Both the position numbers and the translations under genes were made by a program. The notes beneath the pieces were generated by a model. It was given only the letters and a program-made list of their open reading frames with translations, did not search any database and was not told the origin of the DNA. Shown here one piece after another: positions 1,167 to 4,408 of a DNA stretch of 4,408 nucleotides; within the stretch, counting starts at the first letter, position 1, and each line of letters starts with the position of its first letter. Source of the DNA: a virus (Duplodnaviria; Heunggongvirae; Uroviricota; Caudoviricetes); IMG/VR virus record IMGVR_UViG_3300006879_000538, positions 1 through 4,408 of that record; one strand, written 5' to 3'.

Positions 1167-1519
1167 TACGCCTCCGATGTAACAGTCGTTATTCCATAAA
1201 GAGTGTCGATTTCAGCGGAAAACATGACACGTCGGGTCGTGGTATCCAGCGTCGTATTGAAAGAGAGGATTGATTTAACGCCCCGCGTTTCGAGGATGCG
1301 CTTACGGATCGCCAGGTTGTAGGTTTCCGGCTTCTGCTTACCGAGTACGGACTGGATCCACGGAGTCCCCTCGGTGGTGTCGAGAAACCATTGCCCATAC
1401 CACAATTCGAATCGCGTTTTTACCGCCTGCGCCACGGCCTCCGGTGAGTTAATCAGCCAGGTGTCATCACCGCTGCCAAAGGTGTAATCGCCATCGGCGT
1501 CTTCACGTCTGTATCGCAT
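1166..1519 (-). CDS. Phage GP46-family small baseplate protein (gp25/gpW-like wedge component), 117 aa
   Basis: ORF in the track (MRYRREDADGDYTFGSGDDTWLINSPEAV...). Its ATG overlaps the stop of the V-like gene (ATGA at 1517..1520) and its stop overlaps the J-like start. Size and position between V-like and J-like genes match the Mu gp45-gp46-gp47 arrangement. Confidence 0.65.
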   Translation of the reverse strand: MRYRREDADGDYTFGSGDDTWLINSPEAVAQAVKTRFELWYGQWFLDTTEGTPWIQSVLGKQKPETYNLAIRKRILETRGVKSILSFNTTLDTTTRRVMFSAEIDTLYGITTVTSEA

Positions 1520-2271
1520 CAGTTTACTCCGTCGGTATTGCTTCCACCGCGCTGAACACCACCATGAGTGTGCGTATCATCGATTGGCTTGCCGTTAGCC
1601 TTCACGCTACCCAAAAACTCAACAGCACCAGTAATTTTTGAAGCCACACCAGAAACAACAGACCCCACCATGCCCCCCATCCAGGTTAACAGGCCATGAA
1701 TGGTTACTTTCTCAGAAAAATCAGCCAGAGGGGCAACCACATCAAGGCCCCCCGGAGCAACAATTTTAATTTTCCCGGTATCAGGATTAAGCTCAAAATA
1801 GGTGCTGCCATCGTCACTACGCAACTGTGTGGCACTGGTATTAATACCGCTAATCTTCCTAGCCTGCGACTGGGGACCGACAATACAAAACGCATCCGAT
1901 AAATCATGCATTCTGTCATCAACAGGCTCCTGTATCCCGCCGTTCTGCCACCAGAAATCAATACAACGATCGGCAAAAACGACAAGACACTCATCCCCGG
2001 CTTTTACCGGAAAAGTCAACGTACAGCCTCCGCCGCGCGGAAATACCACCGGCACATCCACCAGTAGCGGGTAATTTTTGGTTACGCGGTTGCCGTCGTT
2101 GTCGGTTTCAACCGAACGAATAGCAGGCTGCACAACCGCCGTCACCGCGTCAGGATCGAATGACTGAACGATGCCAGGCAAAGCGACGCGGATCTGGTTC
2201 TTTGTGGTTTCCCGCTCGGATTTGAATGTTTCGGCAAGGTCGCCGCTGCGGGTCTGGTCAGATACTGCCAT
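1519..2271 (-). CDS. Baseplate assembly protein V-like / tail spike (Mu gp45-like), 250 aa
   Basis: ORF in the track. The segment PLLVDVPVVFPRGGGCTLTFPVKAGDECLVVFADRCIDFWWQNGG resembles the N-terminal OB-fold region of gpV-family spike proteins, and the C-terminal part is Gly-rich. GGAG lies about 7 nt upstream of the ATG at 2271. Synteny with the GP46-like and J-like genes supports the call. Confidence 0.7.
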   Translation of the reverse strand: MAVSDQTRSGDLAETFKSERETTKNQIRVALPGIVQSFDPDAVTAVVQPAIRSVETDNDGNRVTKNYPLLVDVPVVFPRGGGCTLTFPVKAGDECLVVFADRCIDFWWQNGGIQEPVDDRMHDLSDAFCIVGPQSQARKISGINTSATQLRSDDGSTYFELNPDTGKIKIVAPGGLDVVAPLADFSEKVTIHGLLTWMGGMVGSVVSGVASKITGAVEFLGSVKANGKPIDDTHTHGGVQRGGSNTDGVN

Positions 2272-2290
2272 TTGTTAGGCTCCAGAAAGC

Positions 2291-2314
2291 AAAAAACCCG
2301 CCGGATGGCGGGTT
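2291..2314 (-). terminator. Rho-independent terminator for minus-strand transcription, downstream of the HEPN gene
   Basis: Inverted repeat aacccgcc (2295-2302), loop ggat, ggcgggtt (2307-2314) on the plus strand. On the minus strand the GC-rich stem is followed directly by a T6 run (complement of a-run 2291-2296). It sits 18 nt after the HEPN stop (2332) and about 20 nt before the V-like start (2271). Confidence 0.6.
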
Positions 2315-2331
2315 CGTAAATAAACTTTTTG

Positions 2332-2712
2332 CTAGGCTACTTGGGATTTCATTTCTGCTATTTTGTCCAACATCTTGTTCACCACTGCAATAGATGAACT
2401 TGCTTCAGTTTGCAAAATAGTCTCTGTTAGATCGTAGTCCGCGCGCTTACGCTTCATTTTTTGCTGTTTGAGAACTGCCCCCAACTGGATAAGAGACATT
2501 AACTCATAAGGTTCATCCTTCCGCCTTGCATCCGAAATAAGATATTGAACAACTCCATCATGTGTTGTCGGCGGGCAACACGTCAAAAGGCCACATGTTT
2601 CATGGTAGAACGCATAGTATGCCCGTGAAATAGCACTTCTGAAACCAGACTCAATACCAGTGTCTAAACATGCACGGGATGCGTCAATGAACTCTTTTCC
2701 TTGGATACTCAT
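2332..2712 (-). CDS. HEPN-domain protein, putative RNase toxin/effector, 126 aa
   Basis: ORF in the track. Residues 29-58 (SRAYYAFYHETCGLLTCCPPTTHDGVVQYL) match the pattern I recall for classical HEPN proteins: an R-x6-H motif inside an RAYYA.FH helix followed by a conserved H.GV segment. The motif R30-H37 is encoded at 2602..2625 (RC = CGGGCATACTATGCGTTCTACCAT). Start ATG overlaps the stop of the upstream gene by 4 nt (ATGA). Confidence 0.7.
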   Translation of the reverse strand: MSIQGKEFIDASRACLDTGIESGFRSAISRAYYAFYHETCGLLTCCPPTTHDGVVQYLISDARRKDEPYELMSLIQLGAVLKQQKMKRKRADYDLTETILQTEASSSIAVVNKMLDKIAEMKSQVA

Positions 2713-3482
2713 ATCGTGAAGTGAATCTCCTGCCGATTACGCCCGCGGAACCAGGCCGTCACATTCTTTCCAGCGAAGATCTCATTCATTGCAATTTCAG
2801 TAGCAACGTCAATATCCATATCGGAAAGCATATCGGCATCCTCACATAAAACATCACAAACTATGCCAGCATCCCCATCCGGGCTTGTGACATAGTCATG
2901 AGAAATAGCTAAAACACCATAATTCTTAGCGACATTAGTAATTGTTCTGGAAAGAAGATTTATCTCATTCGTGCTTAAATCAGTCACACTTATGAATGTA
3001 TCTAATGCCCGTTTTTTTTCCATGATATCTGACTCCATGCTTTCTCGCTCGCTCTCACTTCCGATCATAGACAGAGCTTTTCGAGCAAAAAAGAGTGATA
3101 GTTCACCATCGCCGTCAGCATAGGCTGCATTCCTTGCTCGTATGCACAAAGCAAGGCTGGTAATTTCCCGAGCTAACCTCACAGCCTCTTCTCGGTACAA
3201 TTCATACTGTCCAGTATGACTGAGGTAAGAAAGATAATTTCTGGCTACTGTTTCGTCACGGTATGCAACTGCCTCCTGAAAAAAACCGACAGCTTCAACA
3301 TGTTGATGCGCAGCTCCATAAGCCAGAGCCAACACCATCAACTTAACTGGCTCATCAGGGATTTTGCCTGCTTCAGAGACAACTCGCTTTAGCGTAAAAG
3401 CATCCAGTTGCTGCCCTTCATCAATACGTGAAGTAAGCATCTCAAGCGTTTCATTCAGTTTGCTATACAGTGCAAGTGACAT
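2709..3482 (-). CDS. Hypothetical protein, 257 aa, operon partner of the HEPN gene (candidate antitoxin/sensor)
   Basis: ORF in the track. AAGGAGG lies 6 nt upstream of the ATG at 3482..3480. The N-terminal half (about residues 45-140) looks alpha-helical and possibly TPR-like (LALAYGAAHQHVEAVGFFQEAVAY...YLSYLSHTGQYELYREEAV). The C-terminal region is acidic (residues 202-229, DGDAGIVCDVLCEDADMLSDMDIDVATE). I see no Walker A motif and no clear GS...DxD nucleotidyltransferase signature. Confidence 0.65.
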   Translation of the reverse strand: MSLALYSKLNETLEMLTSRIDEGQQLDAFTLKRVVSEAGKIPDEPVKLMVLALAYGAAHQHVEAVGFFQEAVAYRDETVARNYLSYLSHTGQYELYREEAVRLAREITSLALCIRARNAAYADGDGELSLFFARKALSMIGSESERESMESDIMEKKRALDTFISVTDLSTNEINLLSRTITNVAKNYGVLAISHDYVTSPDGDAGIVCDVLCEDADMLSDMDIDVATEIAMNEIFAGKNVTAWFRGRNRQEIHFTI

Positions 3483-3533
3483 TAATCATCCTCCTTAACG
3501 GAGGAATTTATCATTGGAAGGCATCATCAACAA
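3483..3533 (-). promoter_or_regulatory. Putative sigma70-type promoter, palindromic element and SD for the two-gene operon
   Basis: Read on the minus strand: candidate -35 TTGTTG (3533..3528), 17-nt spacer, TG-extended -10 TAAATT (3510..3505), then the perfect palindrome TCCTCC-GTTAA-GGAGGA (3505..3489) whose downstream arm is the SD, then the ATG at 3482. Promoter hexamers are a modest match to consensus. Confidence 0.35.
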
Positions 3534-3680
3534 CCTGTTGTTTTATTCATTAATCCATATTCTAGACTAATGCTTTGCTCTTTTCTAAGGAGAGAAAGGA
3601 GAACTGGTTAAAATTTCTTACTCTCACCCAGCCACTTTTTTACAAGGGAAAGATTCGATGATTTTCGGCGCATCCATGAC

Positions 3681-4157
3681 TTAATAACCTTGAGATTTAG
3701 CAACGCGAATACCGGCCGCCATCCCATTGAAATCCCATGCGTTTTTATGGGCAATAGGATTACGTGTGTTGAAGGCATAGCGCTGGCCCATTTTCCATGC
3801 TGTATCGCTAACAGACTTATCTTGAGAGAGGTTTACCCACTCCTTTATGCCTTTGTAAACATAGGACTTACAATCATCCGTAGTTCCTTTCCGATTGGTG
3901 TAGGCATCCAGATCTTCGCATTCTTGAAAGGAGTTGCTGACTATATCCGCGAAATCATCAATGGTCATGGCGAATCTGCGACCATTCATAGCGAAAAAAG
4001 GAGTAGCAGAGGCGTAATGTTGCCACTGCGTAAACTTTTGCTGATCCATTAAATCAACAGCCATTTTTTCATACTTCCCAGGAGCGGATAATCCCGACAT
4101 CGGAACAAGTAAACTTATTGCAATAAAAATGGCTTTCTTATTCAATCTTATCCCCAC
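3681..4157 (-). CDS. Hypothetical secreted/periplasmic protein with N-terminal signal peptide (start codon uncertain: GTG 4157 or TTG 4145; track ATG 4226 less likely)
   Basis: The track ORF (3681..4226) contains an internal signal-peptide-like segment, LNKKAIFIAISLLVPMSGLSA-PGK, which only makes sense at an N-terminus. GTG at 4157..4155 lies 10 nt after AAGGAG (4173..4168); TTG at 4145..4143 is the alternative. The predicted mature protein has two Cys (QECEDL..., ...DDCKSY), compatible with a periplasmic disulfide. I recognise no family. Confidence 0.55.
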   Translation of the reverse strand: MGIRLNKKAIFIAISLLVPMSGLSAPGKYEKMAVDLMDQQKFTQWQHYASATPFFAMNGRRFAMTIDDFADIVSNSFQECEDLDAYTNRKGTTDDCKSYVYKGIKEWVNLSQDKSVSDTAWKMGQRYAFNTRNPIAHKNAWDFNGMAAGIRVAKSQGY

Positions 4158-4408
4158 CGATTCATTGCTCCTTGACTTTGAAGATCCGCCGCGCCACGCG
4201 CTTGGCACATCATATCCATGTACCACGCCTGGCCCCTTGTGTCACCAGTGTACATAATCCCGCGCACAATATAAACGCCATCCGTTGCGATGCTGGCAGG
4301 TTGTGCTGTGGTGCCGCTGAGCGTGATATTACCGTCCGTGTTCTGGTCGGTGATCTGACCACCAGCCATAGCGATATCGTTGTTCGACAACGCGGCGCGA
4401 TATACAGA
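4148..4408 (-). CDS. C-terminal fragment of an upstream phage tail/baseplate gene (possibly the baseplate hub, Mu gp44 / P2 gpD-like, by synteny), 5' end beyond window
   Basis: The minus-strand frame is open from the window edge (4408) to TAA at 4150..4148 (…SNNDIAMAGGQITDQNTDGNITLSGTTAQPASIATDGVYIVRGIMYTGDTRGQAWYMDMMCQARG…). The track's TTG start at 4390 is probably internal. Functional call rests only on position upstream of the V-like gene. Confidence 0.4.
   Translation of the reverse strand, partial: SVYRAALSNNDIAMAGGQITDQNTDGNITLSGTTAQPASIATDGVYIVRGIMYTGDTRGQAWYMDMMCQARGAADLQSQGAMNRWG

What the first reader, a model, noticed from the sequence alone, without database searches (positions are those of the whole stretch)
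2291..3533. Self-contained HEPN two-gene cassette inserted between phage baseplate genes: candidate undescribed defense or toxin-antitoxin module
A putative promoter, a strong SD, a 257-aa protein of unknown family, a 4-nt-overlapping (ATGA) 126-aa HEPN protein and an intrinsic terminator form a compact unit just upstream of the V-like spike gene. It looks AT-richer than the flanking tail genes. HEPN domains are typically RNases that act as toxins or abortive-infection effectors, and their usual partner is a roughly 100-aa MNT nucleotidyltransferase. Here the partner is 257 aa with no clear NTase signature, so the pairing looks non-canonical. Promoter-plus-terminator cargo inside a phage late operon fits the moron concept.
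Basis: partly seen in the sequence, partly recalled or inferred. Interest (0 to 1): 0.85.

Follow-up and report, generated by a model that had tools for sequence, protein, structure and literature searches.

The report
Prophage HEPN–TPR two-gene cargo cassette
A small two-gene unit carried as optional cargo in an E. coli prophage tail operon encodes a predicted HEPN-fold RNase and a repeat-protein partner, and looks like an untested toxin-antitoxin or anti-phage module of a new partner type.

Summary
On the minus strand a 257-aa gene (2709-3482) overlaps a 126-aa gene (2332-2712) by ATGA. The pair sits between the baseplate hub and the gp138/V-like spike gene of an E. coli myovirus prophage.

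**126-aa protein.** It has a HEPN fold of the AF0298/UPF0332 'HEPN-T' type. The canonical motif site reads R88..D92-Y93 with no His, and H51 is an invariant alternative His.

**257-aa partner.** It is TPR-like with a C-terminal alpha-beta-beta-alpha-beta domain. It is not a nucleotidyltransferase and has almost no conserved polar residues.

**Pairing.** The partner lies directly upstream of the HEPN gene in every locus with enough upstream DNA. The two proteins diverge together (r = 0.97) but independently of the phage backbone (r = 0.10).

**Cargo status.** Cassette-specific DNA is 2315-3623 (GC 0.425, flank 0.507). Near-identical prophages carry other cargo there, and Proteus prophages carry the pair in the lambda rexAB slot. 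The terminator belongs to the shared flank.

No known defence or TA model matches. Best reading: a lysogen-expressed TA-like or abortive-infection module. Function is untested.

The parts
2315..3623 (-). Cassette-specific DNA: upstream control region plus the two genes. This is variable cargo.
   Evidence: BLASTN homology with relatives that lack the cassette (L003, L014-L017) stops at 2314/2321 and resumes at 3612-3633. GC is 0.425 against 0.507 in the flank.
3505..3533 (-). Candidate sigma-70 promoter: -35 TTGTTG (3533-3528), 17-nt spacer, extended -10 TG (3513-3512) and TAAATT (3510-3505)
   Evidence: It is the best site in my scoring and keeps the same position in Citrobacter and IMG/VR cassettes. 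It is weak by consensus and was not listed by the scan tool.
3529..3542 (.). Perfect palindrome AACAAC-AG-GTTGTT overlapping the -35. Candidate operator; the binder is unknown.
   Evidence: It is unique in the window, with 0.02 matches expected by chance. It is conserved at -60 from the start codon in close-subfamily cassettes, including the Dickeya copy that sits at a different site.
3559..3587 (-). Alternative promoter-like site TAGAAA-17-TAGAAT
   Evidence: Found by the consensus scan with 9 of 12 matches; the count of such sites is not above chance. Only partly conserved.
3489..3505 (-). SD AAGGAGG (3496-3490) inside a UCCUCC/GGAGGA hairpin. Possible anti-SD structure.
   Evidence: MFE -11.7 kcal/mol, z = -2.73. 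Conservation across relatives is weak.
2709..3482 (-). 257-aa partner protein: TPR-like helical repeats (about residues 3-137), a long helix (143-167), and a C-terminal alpha-beta-beta-alpha-beta domain (171-253). Predicted antitoxin/sensor.
2332..2712 (-). 126-aa HEPN-fold protein of the AF0298/UPF0332-like HEPN-T type. Predicted RNase toxin/effector. Invariant residues: E21, R25, S29, R30, Y32, Y33, H37, H51, R88, D92, Y93.
   Evidence: Profile search against PDB: 9xbd/9xbc 'HEPN domain-containing protein' E = 1.6e-7, 2hsb E = 2.4e-3. AF2 pLDDT 91.9. Foldseek top hit 2hsb, TM 0.75, probability 1.00. Invariant residues come from 50 distinct sequences.
2285..2315 (-). Intrinsic terminator (stem-loop 2315-2294 plus T tract) between the HEPN stop codon and the spike start codon
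   Evidence: It lies in backbone DNA shared with relatives carrying other cargo. A terminator-like hairpin plus T tract is found in the 120 nt downstream of the HEPN stop in 54 of 69 distinct loci (in most, the stem starts 3-34 nt after the stop), including non-tail contexts.
3624..3678 (.). Short conserved linker between the two variable slots. Probable recombination anchor.
   Evidence: Blocks at 3633-3678 and 3612-3678 are shared with L014, L017 and L005 although both neighbouring segments differ.
3681..4145 (-). Neighbouring cargo in the second variable slot: a 154-aa ORF (TTG start) with a signal-peptide-like N-terminus. Not part of the HEPN cassette.
   Evidence: Replaced by unrelated 111-115-aa ORFs in relatives.
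1519..2271 (-). Downstream flank: membrane-puncturing spike (gp138-type N-domain plus GpV Apex motif)
   Evidence: Pfam PF18352 E = 2.6e-44 and PF18946 E = 1e-4.
4148..4408 (-). Upstream flank: C-terminus of the baseplate hub protein
   Evidence: phrog_196 'baseplate hub' E = 1.4e-12. Homologous full-length hub genes are present in L001 and other loci.

Best explanation
The cassette is a mobile, self-expressed two-gene module carried by temperate phages. It most likely works as a toxin-antitoxin-like abortive-infection or superinfection-exclusion system.

**Shown**
- The downstream 126-aa protein has a HEPN fold of the AF0298/UPF0332 'HEPN-T' type.
- The upstream 257-aa protein is a TPR-like repeat protein with a small alpha/beta C-terminal domain and no enzyme-like conservation.
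- The two genes are always adjacent in this order, overlap or abut, and diverge in step.
- The unit carries promoter-like sequence and is followed by a terminator.
- It is exchanged among phage backbones. In Proteus prophages it occupies the cI-to-N slot that rexAB holds in phage lambda.

**Inferred**
- In the lysogen the pair is transcribed from its own promoter.
- The HEPN gene is translated by coupling to the partner gene, so the HEPN protein is made together with its partner.
- The HEPN protein is a metal-independent RNase. Its active site would use R88 at the canonical motif position and the alternative His H51, possibly with H37/E38 from helix 2 and Y93.
- The partner holds the HEPN protein inactive by direct binding, in the way a type II antitoxin does. 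It does not act by nucleotidylylation as MNT antitoxins do.
- An incoming phage releases the RNase, either by binding the TPR surface or by causing loss of the partner. Translation in the infected cell then stops.
For: **HEPN assignment**
- Profile search finds PDB HEPN entries at E = 1.6e-7 and AF0298 at E = 2.4e-3.
- The AF2 model has pLDDT 91.9.
- Foldseek's top hit is 2hsb (TM 0.75). Other hits are HEPN proteins, including Csm6, sacsin HEPN, AbiV and an AMPylated HEPN toxin.
- 3 of 31 family members weakly hit Pfam HEPN.

**Active-site pattern**
- E21, R25, S29, R30, Y32, Y33, H37, H51, R88, D92 and Y93 are invariant in 50 distinct sequences.
- This matches the published description of AF0298-like HEPN-T proteins. 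In those, D replaces the motif His, and a conserved His from the helix-2/helix-3 insert is proposed as an alternative active site (PMC3710099).
- The same paper groups AbiV with these proteins. AbiV is an experimentally shown rRNA-degrading RNase toxin (bioRxiv 10.1101/2024.05.05.592566; PMC13064643).

**Partner is not an enzyme**
-.

**Obligate pairing**
- The partner is immediately upstream in every locus with enough upstream DNA.
- Distance correlation is 0.97 for HEPN against partner, and 0.10-0.12 for either protein against the spike.

**Moron features**
-.

**Cargo polymorphism**
- At the same site, near-identical prophages carry a 26-28% identical homologous pair, a YafO-toxin pair, a DUF2335 gene or other ORFs.

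**Lysogeny-linked context**
- In Proteus prophages the order is CI-like repressor (HTH_3 + Peptidase_S24), partner, HEPN, terminator, N-like antiterminator.
Against: - There is no functional data of any kind. Toxicity, neutralisation, RNase activity and phage protection are all untested.
- The canonical Rx4-6H His is absent, so the HEPN protein could be catalytically dead.
- The partner is twice the toxin's size and has no DNA-binding domain. That is unusual for a type II antitoxin, and it leaves the conserved promoter palindrome without a binder.
- About 70% of loci sit at one baseplate junction of one tail lineage. That could point to a link with tail biology instead.
- No PADLOC model matches. 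This is expected if the system is new, but equally expected if it is not a defence system.
- The distance correlation is expected for any two tightly linked genes. It does not prove that the proteins interact.
Confidence: 0.5

Rival explanations
1. It is a plain addiction or stabilisation toxin-antitoxin pair. The HEPN toxin and its labile partner only promote retention of the cassette or prophage (post-segregational killing) and give no phage defence.
For: The anatomy is the same as in the main model: two small, coupled genes in putative antitoxin-then-toxin order. A neighbouring prophage variant carries a YafO-family toxin pair at the same site. No defence model matches.
Against: A chromosomally integrated prophage gains little from post-segregational killing. 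The pair's position in the lambda rexAB slot and in a cargo hotspot fits lysogen-expressed exclusion functions better. These arguments are only circumstantial.
Confidence: 0.15
2. The HEPN protein is not a toxin. The pair serves the phage itself. It could be an RNA-binding or regulatory complex, or a host-takeover or counter-defence factor that acts during lytic growth and is expressed by read-through of the late tail operon.
For: The canonical motif His is missing. Non-catalytic HEPN proteins such as MtlR are known (PMC3710099). The cassette lies inside a late operon in about 70% of loci. An anti-SD hairpin could make translation depend on which transcript carries the gene.
Against: Eleven polar or aromatic residues are invariant across 50 distinct sequences, including R88 at the motif site and H51. 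That argues for a catalytic or ligand site. The cassette has its own promoter-like region and a downstream terminator in most contexts. Closely related phages do without it. It also sits next to the lysogeny repressor.
Confidence: 0.2
3. It is a tail-delivered effector with its chaperone or immunity protein. By analogy with effector-adaptor pairs encoded next to VgrG/PAAR spikes, the HEPN protein would be loaded on the spike and injected.
For: The pair sits immediately upstream of the spike gene in most loci. TPR proteins can act as chaperones.
Against: The same pair occurs in a siphophage near the tape-measure gene, next to terminase genes, next to a nickase-like gene, and in lambdoid immunity regions. 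Unrelated cargo replaces it at the site. There is no fusion to, or homology with, spike-binding domains.
Confidence: 0.04
4. It is a structural or assembly component of the baseplate.
For: It lies between the hub and spike genes.
Against: It is present in 2 of 373 E. coli genomes that carry this prophage type. It diverges independently of the spike (r = 0.10). It occurs outside tail modules.
Confidence: 0.01

Closest known systems
AF0298-like HEPN-T proteins (UPF0332; PDB 2hsb; also PDB 9xbd/9xbc)
   Same: Same fold (TM 0.75) and size (about 125 aa). Same motif variant: the basic residue is kept at the Rx4-6H site, D/Y stands in place of His, and a conserved His sits in the helix-2/helix-3 insert.
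   Different: Sequence similarity is detectable only with a family profile, and the protein is below Pfam HEPN thresholds. Classical members are paired with or fused to MNT nucleotidyltransferases in archaea and thermophiles. This family is phage-borne in Gammaproteobacteria and is paired with a TPR protein.
HepT/MntA (HEPN-MNT) type VII toxin-antitoxin systems
   Same: A small HEPN protein is encoded downstream of, and overlapping, its partner gene. An invariant Tyr (Y93) lies next to the motif site, reminiscent of the AMPylated Tyr in the RX4HXY motif.
   Different: The partner is not a nucleotidyltransferase. No NTase fold or hG[GS]/DxD signature is present, and few polar residues are conserved. 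The motif His is absent. Neutralisation would have to occur by binding, not by AMPylation.
RnlA-RnlB / LsoA-LsoB (E. coli HEPN-toxin TA systems that abort T4 infection)
   Same: What it would work like: a HEPN RNase held by a non-MNT protein antitoxin, encoded on a mobile element, and acting as an anti-phage abortive-infection system (PMC8266594 abstract).
   Different: No sequence relationship was detected (no Pfam or PADLOC hit). RnlA is a much larger multidomain protein with a canonical motif (from my own knowledge). Gene order and partner fold also differ.
AbiV (Lactococcus HEPN RNase, type III TA)
   Same: AbiV was grouped with AF0298-like HEPN-T proteins because it shares the alternative His position (PMC3710099). 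It is a demonstrated anti-phage RNase that degrades rRNA.
   Different: Structural match is weak (TM about 0.4). AbiV is 201 aa, and its antitoxin is an RNA. No tandem repeats or Rfam RNA were found here.
HEPN families associated with TPR or Sel1 partners (LA2681, AbiU2)
   Same: A genomic association of a HEPN protein with a repeat-protein gene is a known pattern (PMC3710099).
   Different: Those families keep the canonical Rx4-6H motif and have their own Pfam models, none of which matches here. They are functionally uncharacterised as pairs.
Phage lambda rexAB and prophage cargo hotspots (for example the P2/P4 hotspots)
   Same: It is lysogen-expressed accessory cargo with its own promoter and terminator, swapped between otherwise near-identical prophages. 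In Proteus prophages it occupies the cI-to-N slot (PMC9122126).
   Different: The proteins are unrelated to RexA/RexB. The hub-spike junction hotspot of this tail lineage turned up in none of the papers read here.

Membership tests
HEPN superfamily | Four-helix up-and-down bundle of the HEPN type | tested here: met
   AF2 pLDDT 91.9, all-helical. Foldseek top hit 2hsb, TM 0.75, probability 1.00; further hits are HEPN proteins. The family profile hits PDB HEPN entries at E = 1.6e-7.
HEPN superfamily | Rx4-6H motif at the end of core helix 3 | tested here: not met
   The site reads R88-K-R-A-D92-Y93, with Arg kept and His absent. This is the documented AF0298-like variant, not the canonical motif. 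R30-x6-H37 fits the pattern but lies on helix 2.
AF0298-like HEPN-T (UPF0332) | Basic residue kept at the motif site, plus a strongly conserved alternative His in the helix-2/helix-3 insert | tested here: met
   R88 and H51 are invariant in 50 distinct sequences. H51 aligns with the His of AF0298 (KTHRG) and of 9xbd (SSHSA). The definition comes from PMC3710099.
Pfam PF05168 HEPN | Score above the Pfam gathering threshold | tested here: not met
   The window protein gets no hit at E <= 1. Only 3 of 31 relatives hit, best E = 0.0051.
HepT/MntA type VII TA | Adjacent minimal nucleotidyltransferase antitoxin (NTase fold, hG[GS]...DxD) | tested here: not met
HepT/MntA type VII TA | RX4HXY motif whose Tyr is AMPylated | tested here: inconclusive
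   The His is absent. Tyr Y93 is invariant and adjacent to the motif site. Modification cannot be tested here.
Type II toxin-antitoxin module | Two small co-directional genes, antitoxin first, with overlapping or coupled translation | tested here: met
   ATGA overlap. Order and adjacency are kept in all loci with enough upstream DNA.
Type II toxin-antitoxin module | Antitoxin with a DNA-binding domain that autoregulates the operon | tested here: inconclusive
   No HTH, RHH or AbrB domain was found by Pfam or by fold. Even so, a conserved palindrome overlaps the -35.
Type II toxin-antitoxin module | Toxin arrests growth and the cognate antitoxin neutralises it by binding | not testable with these tools
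   This needs expression and rescue experiments.
Known anti-phage defence systems (PADLOC-DB v2.0.0) | Match to a defence-system protein model | tested here: not met
   No families at E <= 1 for either protein. Among relatives, only a marginal HEPN_IX hit (E = 0.0094) for the 142-aa variant. DefensePredictor DS-28 (a HEPN protein plus a 252-aa protein) is unrelated.
Moron (autonomously expressed prophage cargo) | Own promoter and terminator, presence/absence polymorphism between related phages, and deviant base composition | tested here: met
   Promoter-like sites are enriched upstream in all subfamilies, although the window's own site is weak. Terminator. Polymorphism. GC 0.425 against 0.507. 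Transcription itself is untested.

The most novel reading that the evidence does not exclude
The cassette defines a new class of phage-borne abortive-infection system. In it, a UPF0332/AF0298-type HEPN protein is the RNase effector. No paper retrieved here reports an activity for that clade, and its active site would use an alternative His. A dedicated TPR-alpha/beta protein, having displaced the ancestral MNT antitoxin, would act as both inhibitor and direct sensor of an invading phage's protein. The many co-diverged subfamilies (257+126, 257+131, 243+142, 259+121 aa) would then be alleles with different phage specificities. They would be traded among prophages at a hub-spike hotspot and at the lambda rexAB slot.
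Probability: 0.3. Interest if true: 0.65.

Novelty: new variant of a known kind. Interest (0 to 1): 0.5.

Why it matters
If the module is a working TA or abortive-infection system, four things follow.
1. It would give the first functional handle on the AF0298/UPF0332 branch of HEPN proteins and on its proposed alternative active site.
2. It would show that the MNT antitoxin of HEPN modules can be replaced by a non-enzymatic repeat protein.
3. It would add a family of prophage-encoded immunity genes that is frequent in Enterobacterales. The 142-aa variant alone was seen on 1000 or more contigs.
4. It would flag the hub-spike junction of this tail lineage as a cargo hotspot worth mining, in the way the P2/P4 hotspots have been mined.

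If it is not, the result is still a clean annotation for two widespread 'hypothetical' phage proteins (phrog_17809 and phrog_5176).

Tried and rejected
- **Family libraries.** Pfam, NCBIfam and PADLOC scans of both proteins gave no usable hit. PHROGs gave only 'unknown function' families.
- **Single-sequence PDB search.** The search with the 126-aa protein alone was not significant. Only the family profile worked.
- **Phage GenBank tblastn.** One distant HEPN hit and no partner hit.
- **Known system DS-28 of DefensePredictor.** It also pairs a HEPN protein with a protein of about 252 aa, but BLASTP finds no similarity. Our accessions are absent from the supplements that were held, some of which are truncated.
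- **RNA antitoxin or type III TA.** No Rfam match and no tandem repeats.
- **Anti-SD hairpin as a conserved regulator.** It is present in the window but only weakly supported across relatives, so I do not claim it.
- **Literature on UPF0332, COG1895 and PDB 9xbd.** Nothing found.
- **AlphaFold-database fold search.** The library was unavailable.
- **Domain-wise conservation of the partner.** There is no clear hypervariable 'sensor' region.
Full report
**Anatomy.**
All genes in the 4408-base window run on the minus strand. In transcription order they are:
- the C-terminus of a baseplate hub protein (4408-4148; phrog_196);
- a 154-aa ORF with a signal-peptide-like N-terminus (4145-3681);
- a 198-bp AT-rich spacer;
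- a 257-aa gene (3482-2709);
- a 126-aa gene (2712-2332) that overlaps it by ATGA;
- a strong intrinsic terminator (stem-loop 2315-2294 plus T tract);
- the spike gene (2271-1519; gp138-type N-domain E = 2.6e-44 and a GpV Apex motif);
- a baseplate wedge subunit (PHROG) whose counterparts in related loci carry Pfam Sheath_initiator, and baseplate J.

The 257-aa gene has a strong SD (AAGGAGG) 7 nt from its ATG. The 126-aa gene has none at a useful distance, so its translation probably depends on coupling at the ATGA overlap. This last point is inferred from the sequence.

The cassette is AT-richer than its flank: GC 0.425 for 2315-3623 against 0.507 for 1-2271. Two corrections apply.
It is weak by consensus and was not listed by the scan tool. 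The tool found another site at 3587-3559 and no excess of promoter-like sites over shuffles.
- The terminator lies in DNA shared with relatives that lack this cassette.

**The site is a cargo hotspot.**
- The flanking tail genes occur in 373 of 5426 complete E. coli genomes. The cassette DNA occurs in only 2 of them.
- Homology with near-identical prophages (97% identity in the flanks) stops at 2314/2321 and resumes at 3612-3633.
- In the gap those relatives carry other cargo: a 243-aa + 142-aa pair (33 genomes), a 190-aa protein plus a YafO-family toxin, a DUF2335 protein or a 170-aa ORF.
- A second, smaller variable slot lies directly after the hub gene. It holds either the 154-aa ORF or 111-115-aa ORFs, including the 'STY1065/STY2022 family'. 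A conserved linker of about 50 bp separates the two slots.

**The 126-aa protein is a HEPN-fold protein of a specific branch.**
- Pfam, NCBIfam and PADLOC see nothing.
- A profile of 31 family members hits two PDB 'HEPN domain-containing protein' entries (9xbd and 9xbc, E = 1.6e-7 and 8.1e-7). It also hits the UPF0332 protein AF0298 (2hsb, E = 2.4e-3).
- The AlphaFold model is confident (pLDDT 91.9) and all-helical.
- Its best structural match is 2hsb (TM 0.75, probability 1.00). Other HEPN proteins follow.
- Across 50 distinct sequences from all subfamilies, E21, R25, S29, R30, Y32, Y33, H37, H51, R88, D92 and Y93 are invariant.
- The canonical Rx4-6H motif belongs at the end of the third core helix, which is helix 71-93 here. 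That site reads R88-K-R-A-D92-Y93, so the Arg is kept and the His is absent.
- This is the variant that Anantharaman et al. described for the AF0298-like HEPN-T family. In it, D replaces H, and a second, strongly conserved His from the insert between helices 2 and 3 is proposed as an alternative active site (PMC3710099).
- H51 is that His. It aligns with the His of AF0298 and of 9xbd.
Those residues may line the pocket, but they are not the canonical motif.
- The same paper groups AbiV with this branch. AbiV has since been shown to be an rRNA-degrading RNase toxin of an anti-phage system. RNase activity in such variants is therefore plausible, though it is not shown for this protein.

**The 257-aa partner is not a nucleotidyltransferase.**
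- Its model (pLDDT 92.1) has TPR-like helical pairs over residues 3-137 and a long helix at 143-167. A C-terminal alpha-beta-beta-alpha-beta domain covers residues 171-253.
- 19 of 32 relatives weakly hit TPR_2.
- Across all subfamilies only L87, A116, Y121, G124, M222, A227 and A243 reach 90% conservation. That is the profile of a scaffold or binding protein, not an enzyme.
- A profile search of 1.84 billion representatives finds only about 90 full-length relatives. All are 245-290 aa and none is fused to another domain. The remaining hits are generic TPR proteins.
- Two uncultured siphoviruses encode proteins with the same overall fold (TM 0.62-0.65).

**The two genes form one evolutionary unit, separate from the phage.**
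- In 79 IMG/VR loci plus genome loci, the partner lies immediately upstream of every HEPN homologue. The only exceptions are four cases where the contig ends within 415 nt.
- Pairwise divergences of the two proteins correlate at r = 0.97 (1540 comparisons). Either protein against the adjacent spike gives r = 0.10-0.12.
- Prophages whose spikes are 2-4% divergent carry pairs that are 62-82% divergent, and the reverse also occurs.
- The partner diverges faster than the HEPN protein.
- The E. coli 243+142-aa pair is a distant homologue of the window's pair (26% and 28% identity). The hotspot therefore holds several 'alleles' of one system type.
- Linkage alone would produce such a correlation, so it is not proof of physical interaction.

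**Contexts.**
- About 70% of loci have the order hub, small ORF, partner, HEPN, spike.
- The rest lie elsewhere:
  - after the spike in Dickeya, amid other cargo;
  - near the tape-measure gene of a Klebsiella siphophage;
  - next to terminase or portal genes, or next to a nickase-like gene.
- The most telling case is Proteus prophages. There the pair sits between a CI-like repressor (HTH_3 + Peptidase_S24) and an N-like antiterminator. From my own knowledge, rexAB occupies that position in phage lambda.
- A terminator-like hairpin plus T tract is found in the 120 nt downstream of the HEPN stop in 54 of 69 distinct loci, non-tail contexts included. In most, the stem starts 3-34 nt after the stop.
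- Sigma-70-like sites 35-60 nt upstream of the partner gene are strongly enriched (42% against 1.9% in coding controls).
- In the close subfamily, a perfect palindrome AACAAC-AG-GTTGTT (3529-3542) overlaps the -35. It travels with the cassette even to a different insertion site. What binds it is unexplained.

**Mechanism.**
The best-supported reading is a lysogen-expressed, TA-like abortive-infection or exclusion module.
- *Shown:* the folds, the obligate pairing, the coupling geometry, the moron anatomy, the cargo polymorphism and the immunity-region context.
- *Inferred:* RNase activity through R88/H51, inhibition by direct binding of the partner, and release on infection, either through TPR-mediated sensing or through loss of the partner.

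I give this reading 0.5. The rivals are:
- a pure addiction TA (0.15);
- a non-toxic, phage-serving RNA-binding or counter-defence function (0.2);
- a spike-delivered effector with its chaperone (0.04);
- a structural role (0.01, effectively excluded by the distribution).

**Comparison with known systems.**
The module works most like RnlAB/LsoAB, in which a HEPN toxin plus a non-MNT protein antitoxin acts as an anti-phage Abi system. In fold and active-site variant it resembles AF0298-type HEPN-T proteins and, more loosely, AbiV. It is not a HepT/MntA member, because the defining NTase partner and the motif His were tested and are not met. It matches no PADLOC model, and the validated DefensePredictor HEPN pair DS-28 is unrelated.

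**Verdict.**
This is a real, well-delimited and previously unannotated cassette. It is a new variant of a known kind: a HEPN-toxin two-gene module with a new class of partner. Interest is moderate (0.5), because function is untested and HEPN-based candidates are common. The family is nevertheless widespread in Enterobacterales prophages and is directly testable.

Noticed in passing
window 3681-4145 (-), with conserved linker 3624-3678: A second variable cargo slot sits directly after the hub gene. Here it holds a 154-aa ORF with a TTG start 2 nt after the hub stop codon and a signal-peptide-like N-terminus (MNKKAIFIAISLLVPMSGLSA). All its homologues are 'hypothetical'. In relatives it is replaced by unrelated 111-115-aa ORFs, including the 'STY1065/STY2022 family'.
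   Followed up: partly
window 2285-2315 (-): A strong intrinsic terminator sits inside the late tail operon just before the spike gene. It is conserved in relatives whatever cargo they carry, with variation in the loop and the outer stem. Late transcription must therefore read through or antiterminate here.
   Followed up: partly
window 3529-3542: A perfect palindrome AACAAC-AG-GTTGTT overlaps the -35 of the cassette promoter. It is conserved at -60 from the start codon in Citrobacter, Dickeya and IMG/VR copies. It looks like an operator, but neither cassette protein has a recognisable DNA-binding domain.
   Followed up: partly
L039-L046 (Proteus prophages), e.g. L039 4546-7138: The homologous pair sits between a CI-like repressor (HTH_3 + Peptidase_S24) and an N-like antiterminator. 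That is the position rexAB holds in phage lambda.
   Followed up: yes
L016 3814-4804 (E. coli PSS-04 prophage, same hotspot): Alternative cargo at the same site: a YafO-family toxin (138 aa) preceded by an unannotated 190-aa protein instead of the usual YafN antitoxin. This may be another non-canonical toxin-partner pair.
   Followed up: no
window 1580-1806 (spike gene, about residues 155-230): The spike gene is mosaic. Homology between the window and prophage L002 breaks across this segment, although both flanks are more than 92% identical.
   Followed up: no
window 3489-3505 (-): The SD of the 257-aa gene is embedded in a 6-bp UCCUCC/GGAGGA hairpin (-11.7 kcal/mol, z = -2.7). The hairpin would form only on transcripts that start upstream of the proximal promoter. 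Conservation across relatives is weak.
   Followed up: partly
PDB 9xbd / 9xbc (closest solved relatives by sequence): The two deposited entries differ by Tyr to Phe at the residue equivalent to Y93 (DYDL against DFDL). This suggests the depositors consider that Tyr functionally important. No paper was found in the library.
   Followed up: partly
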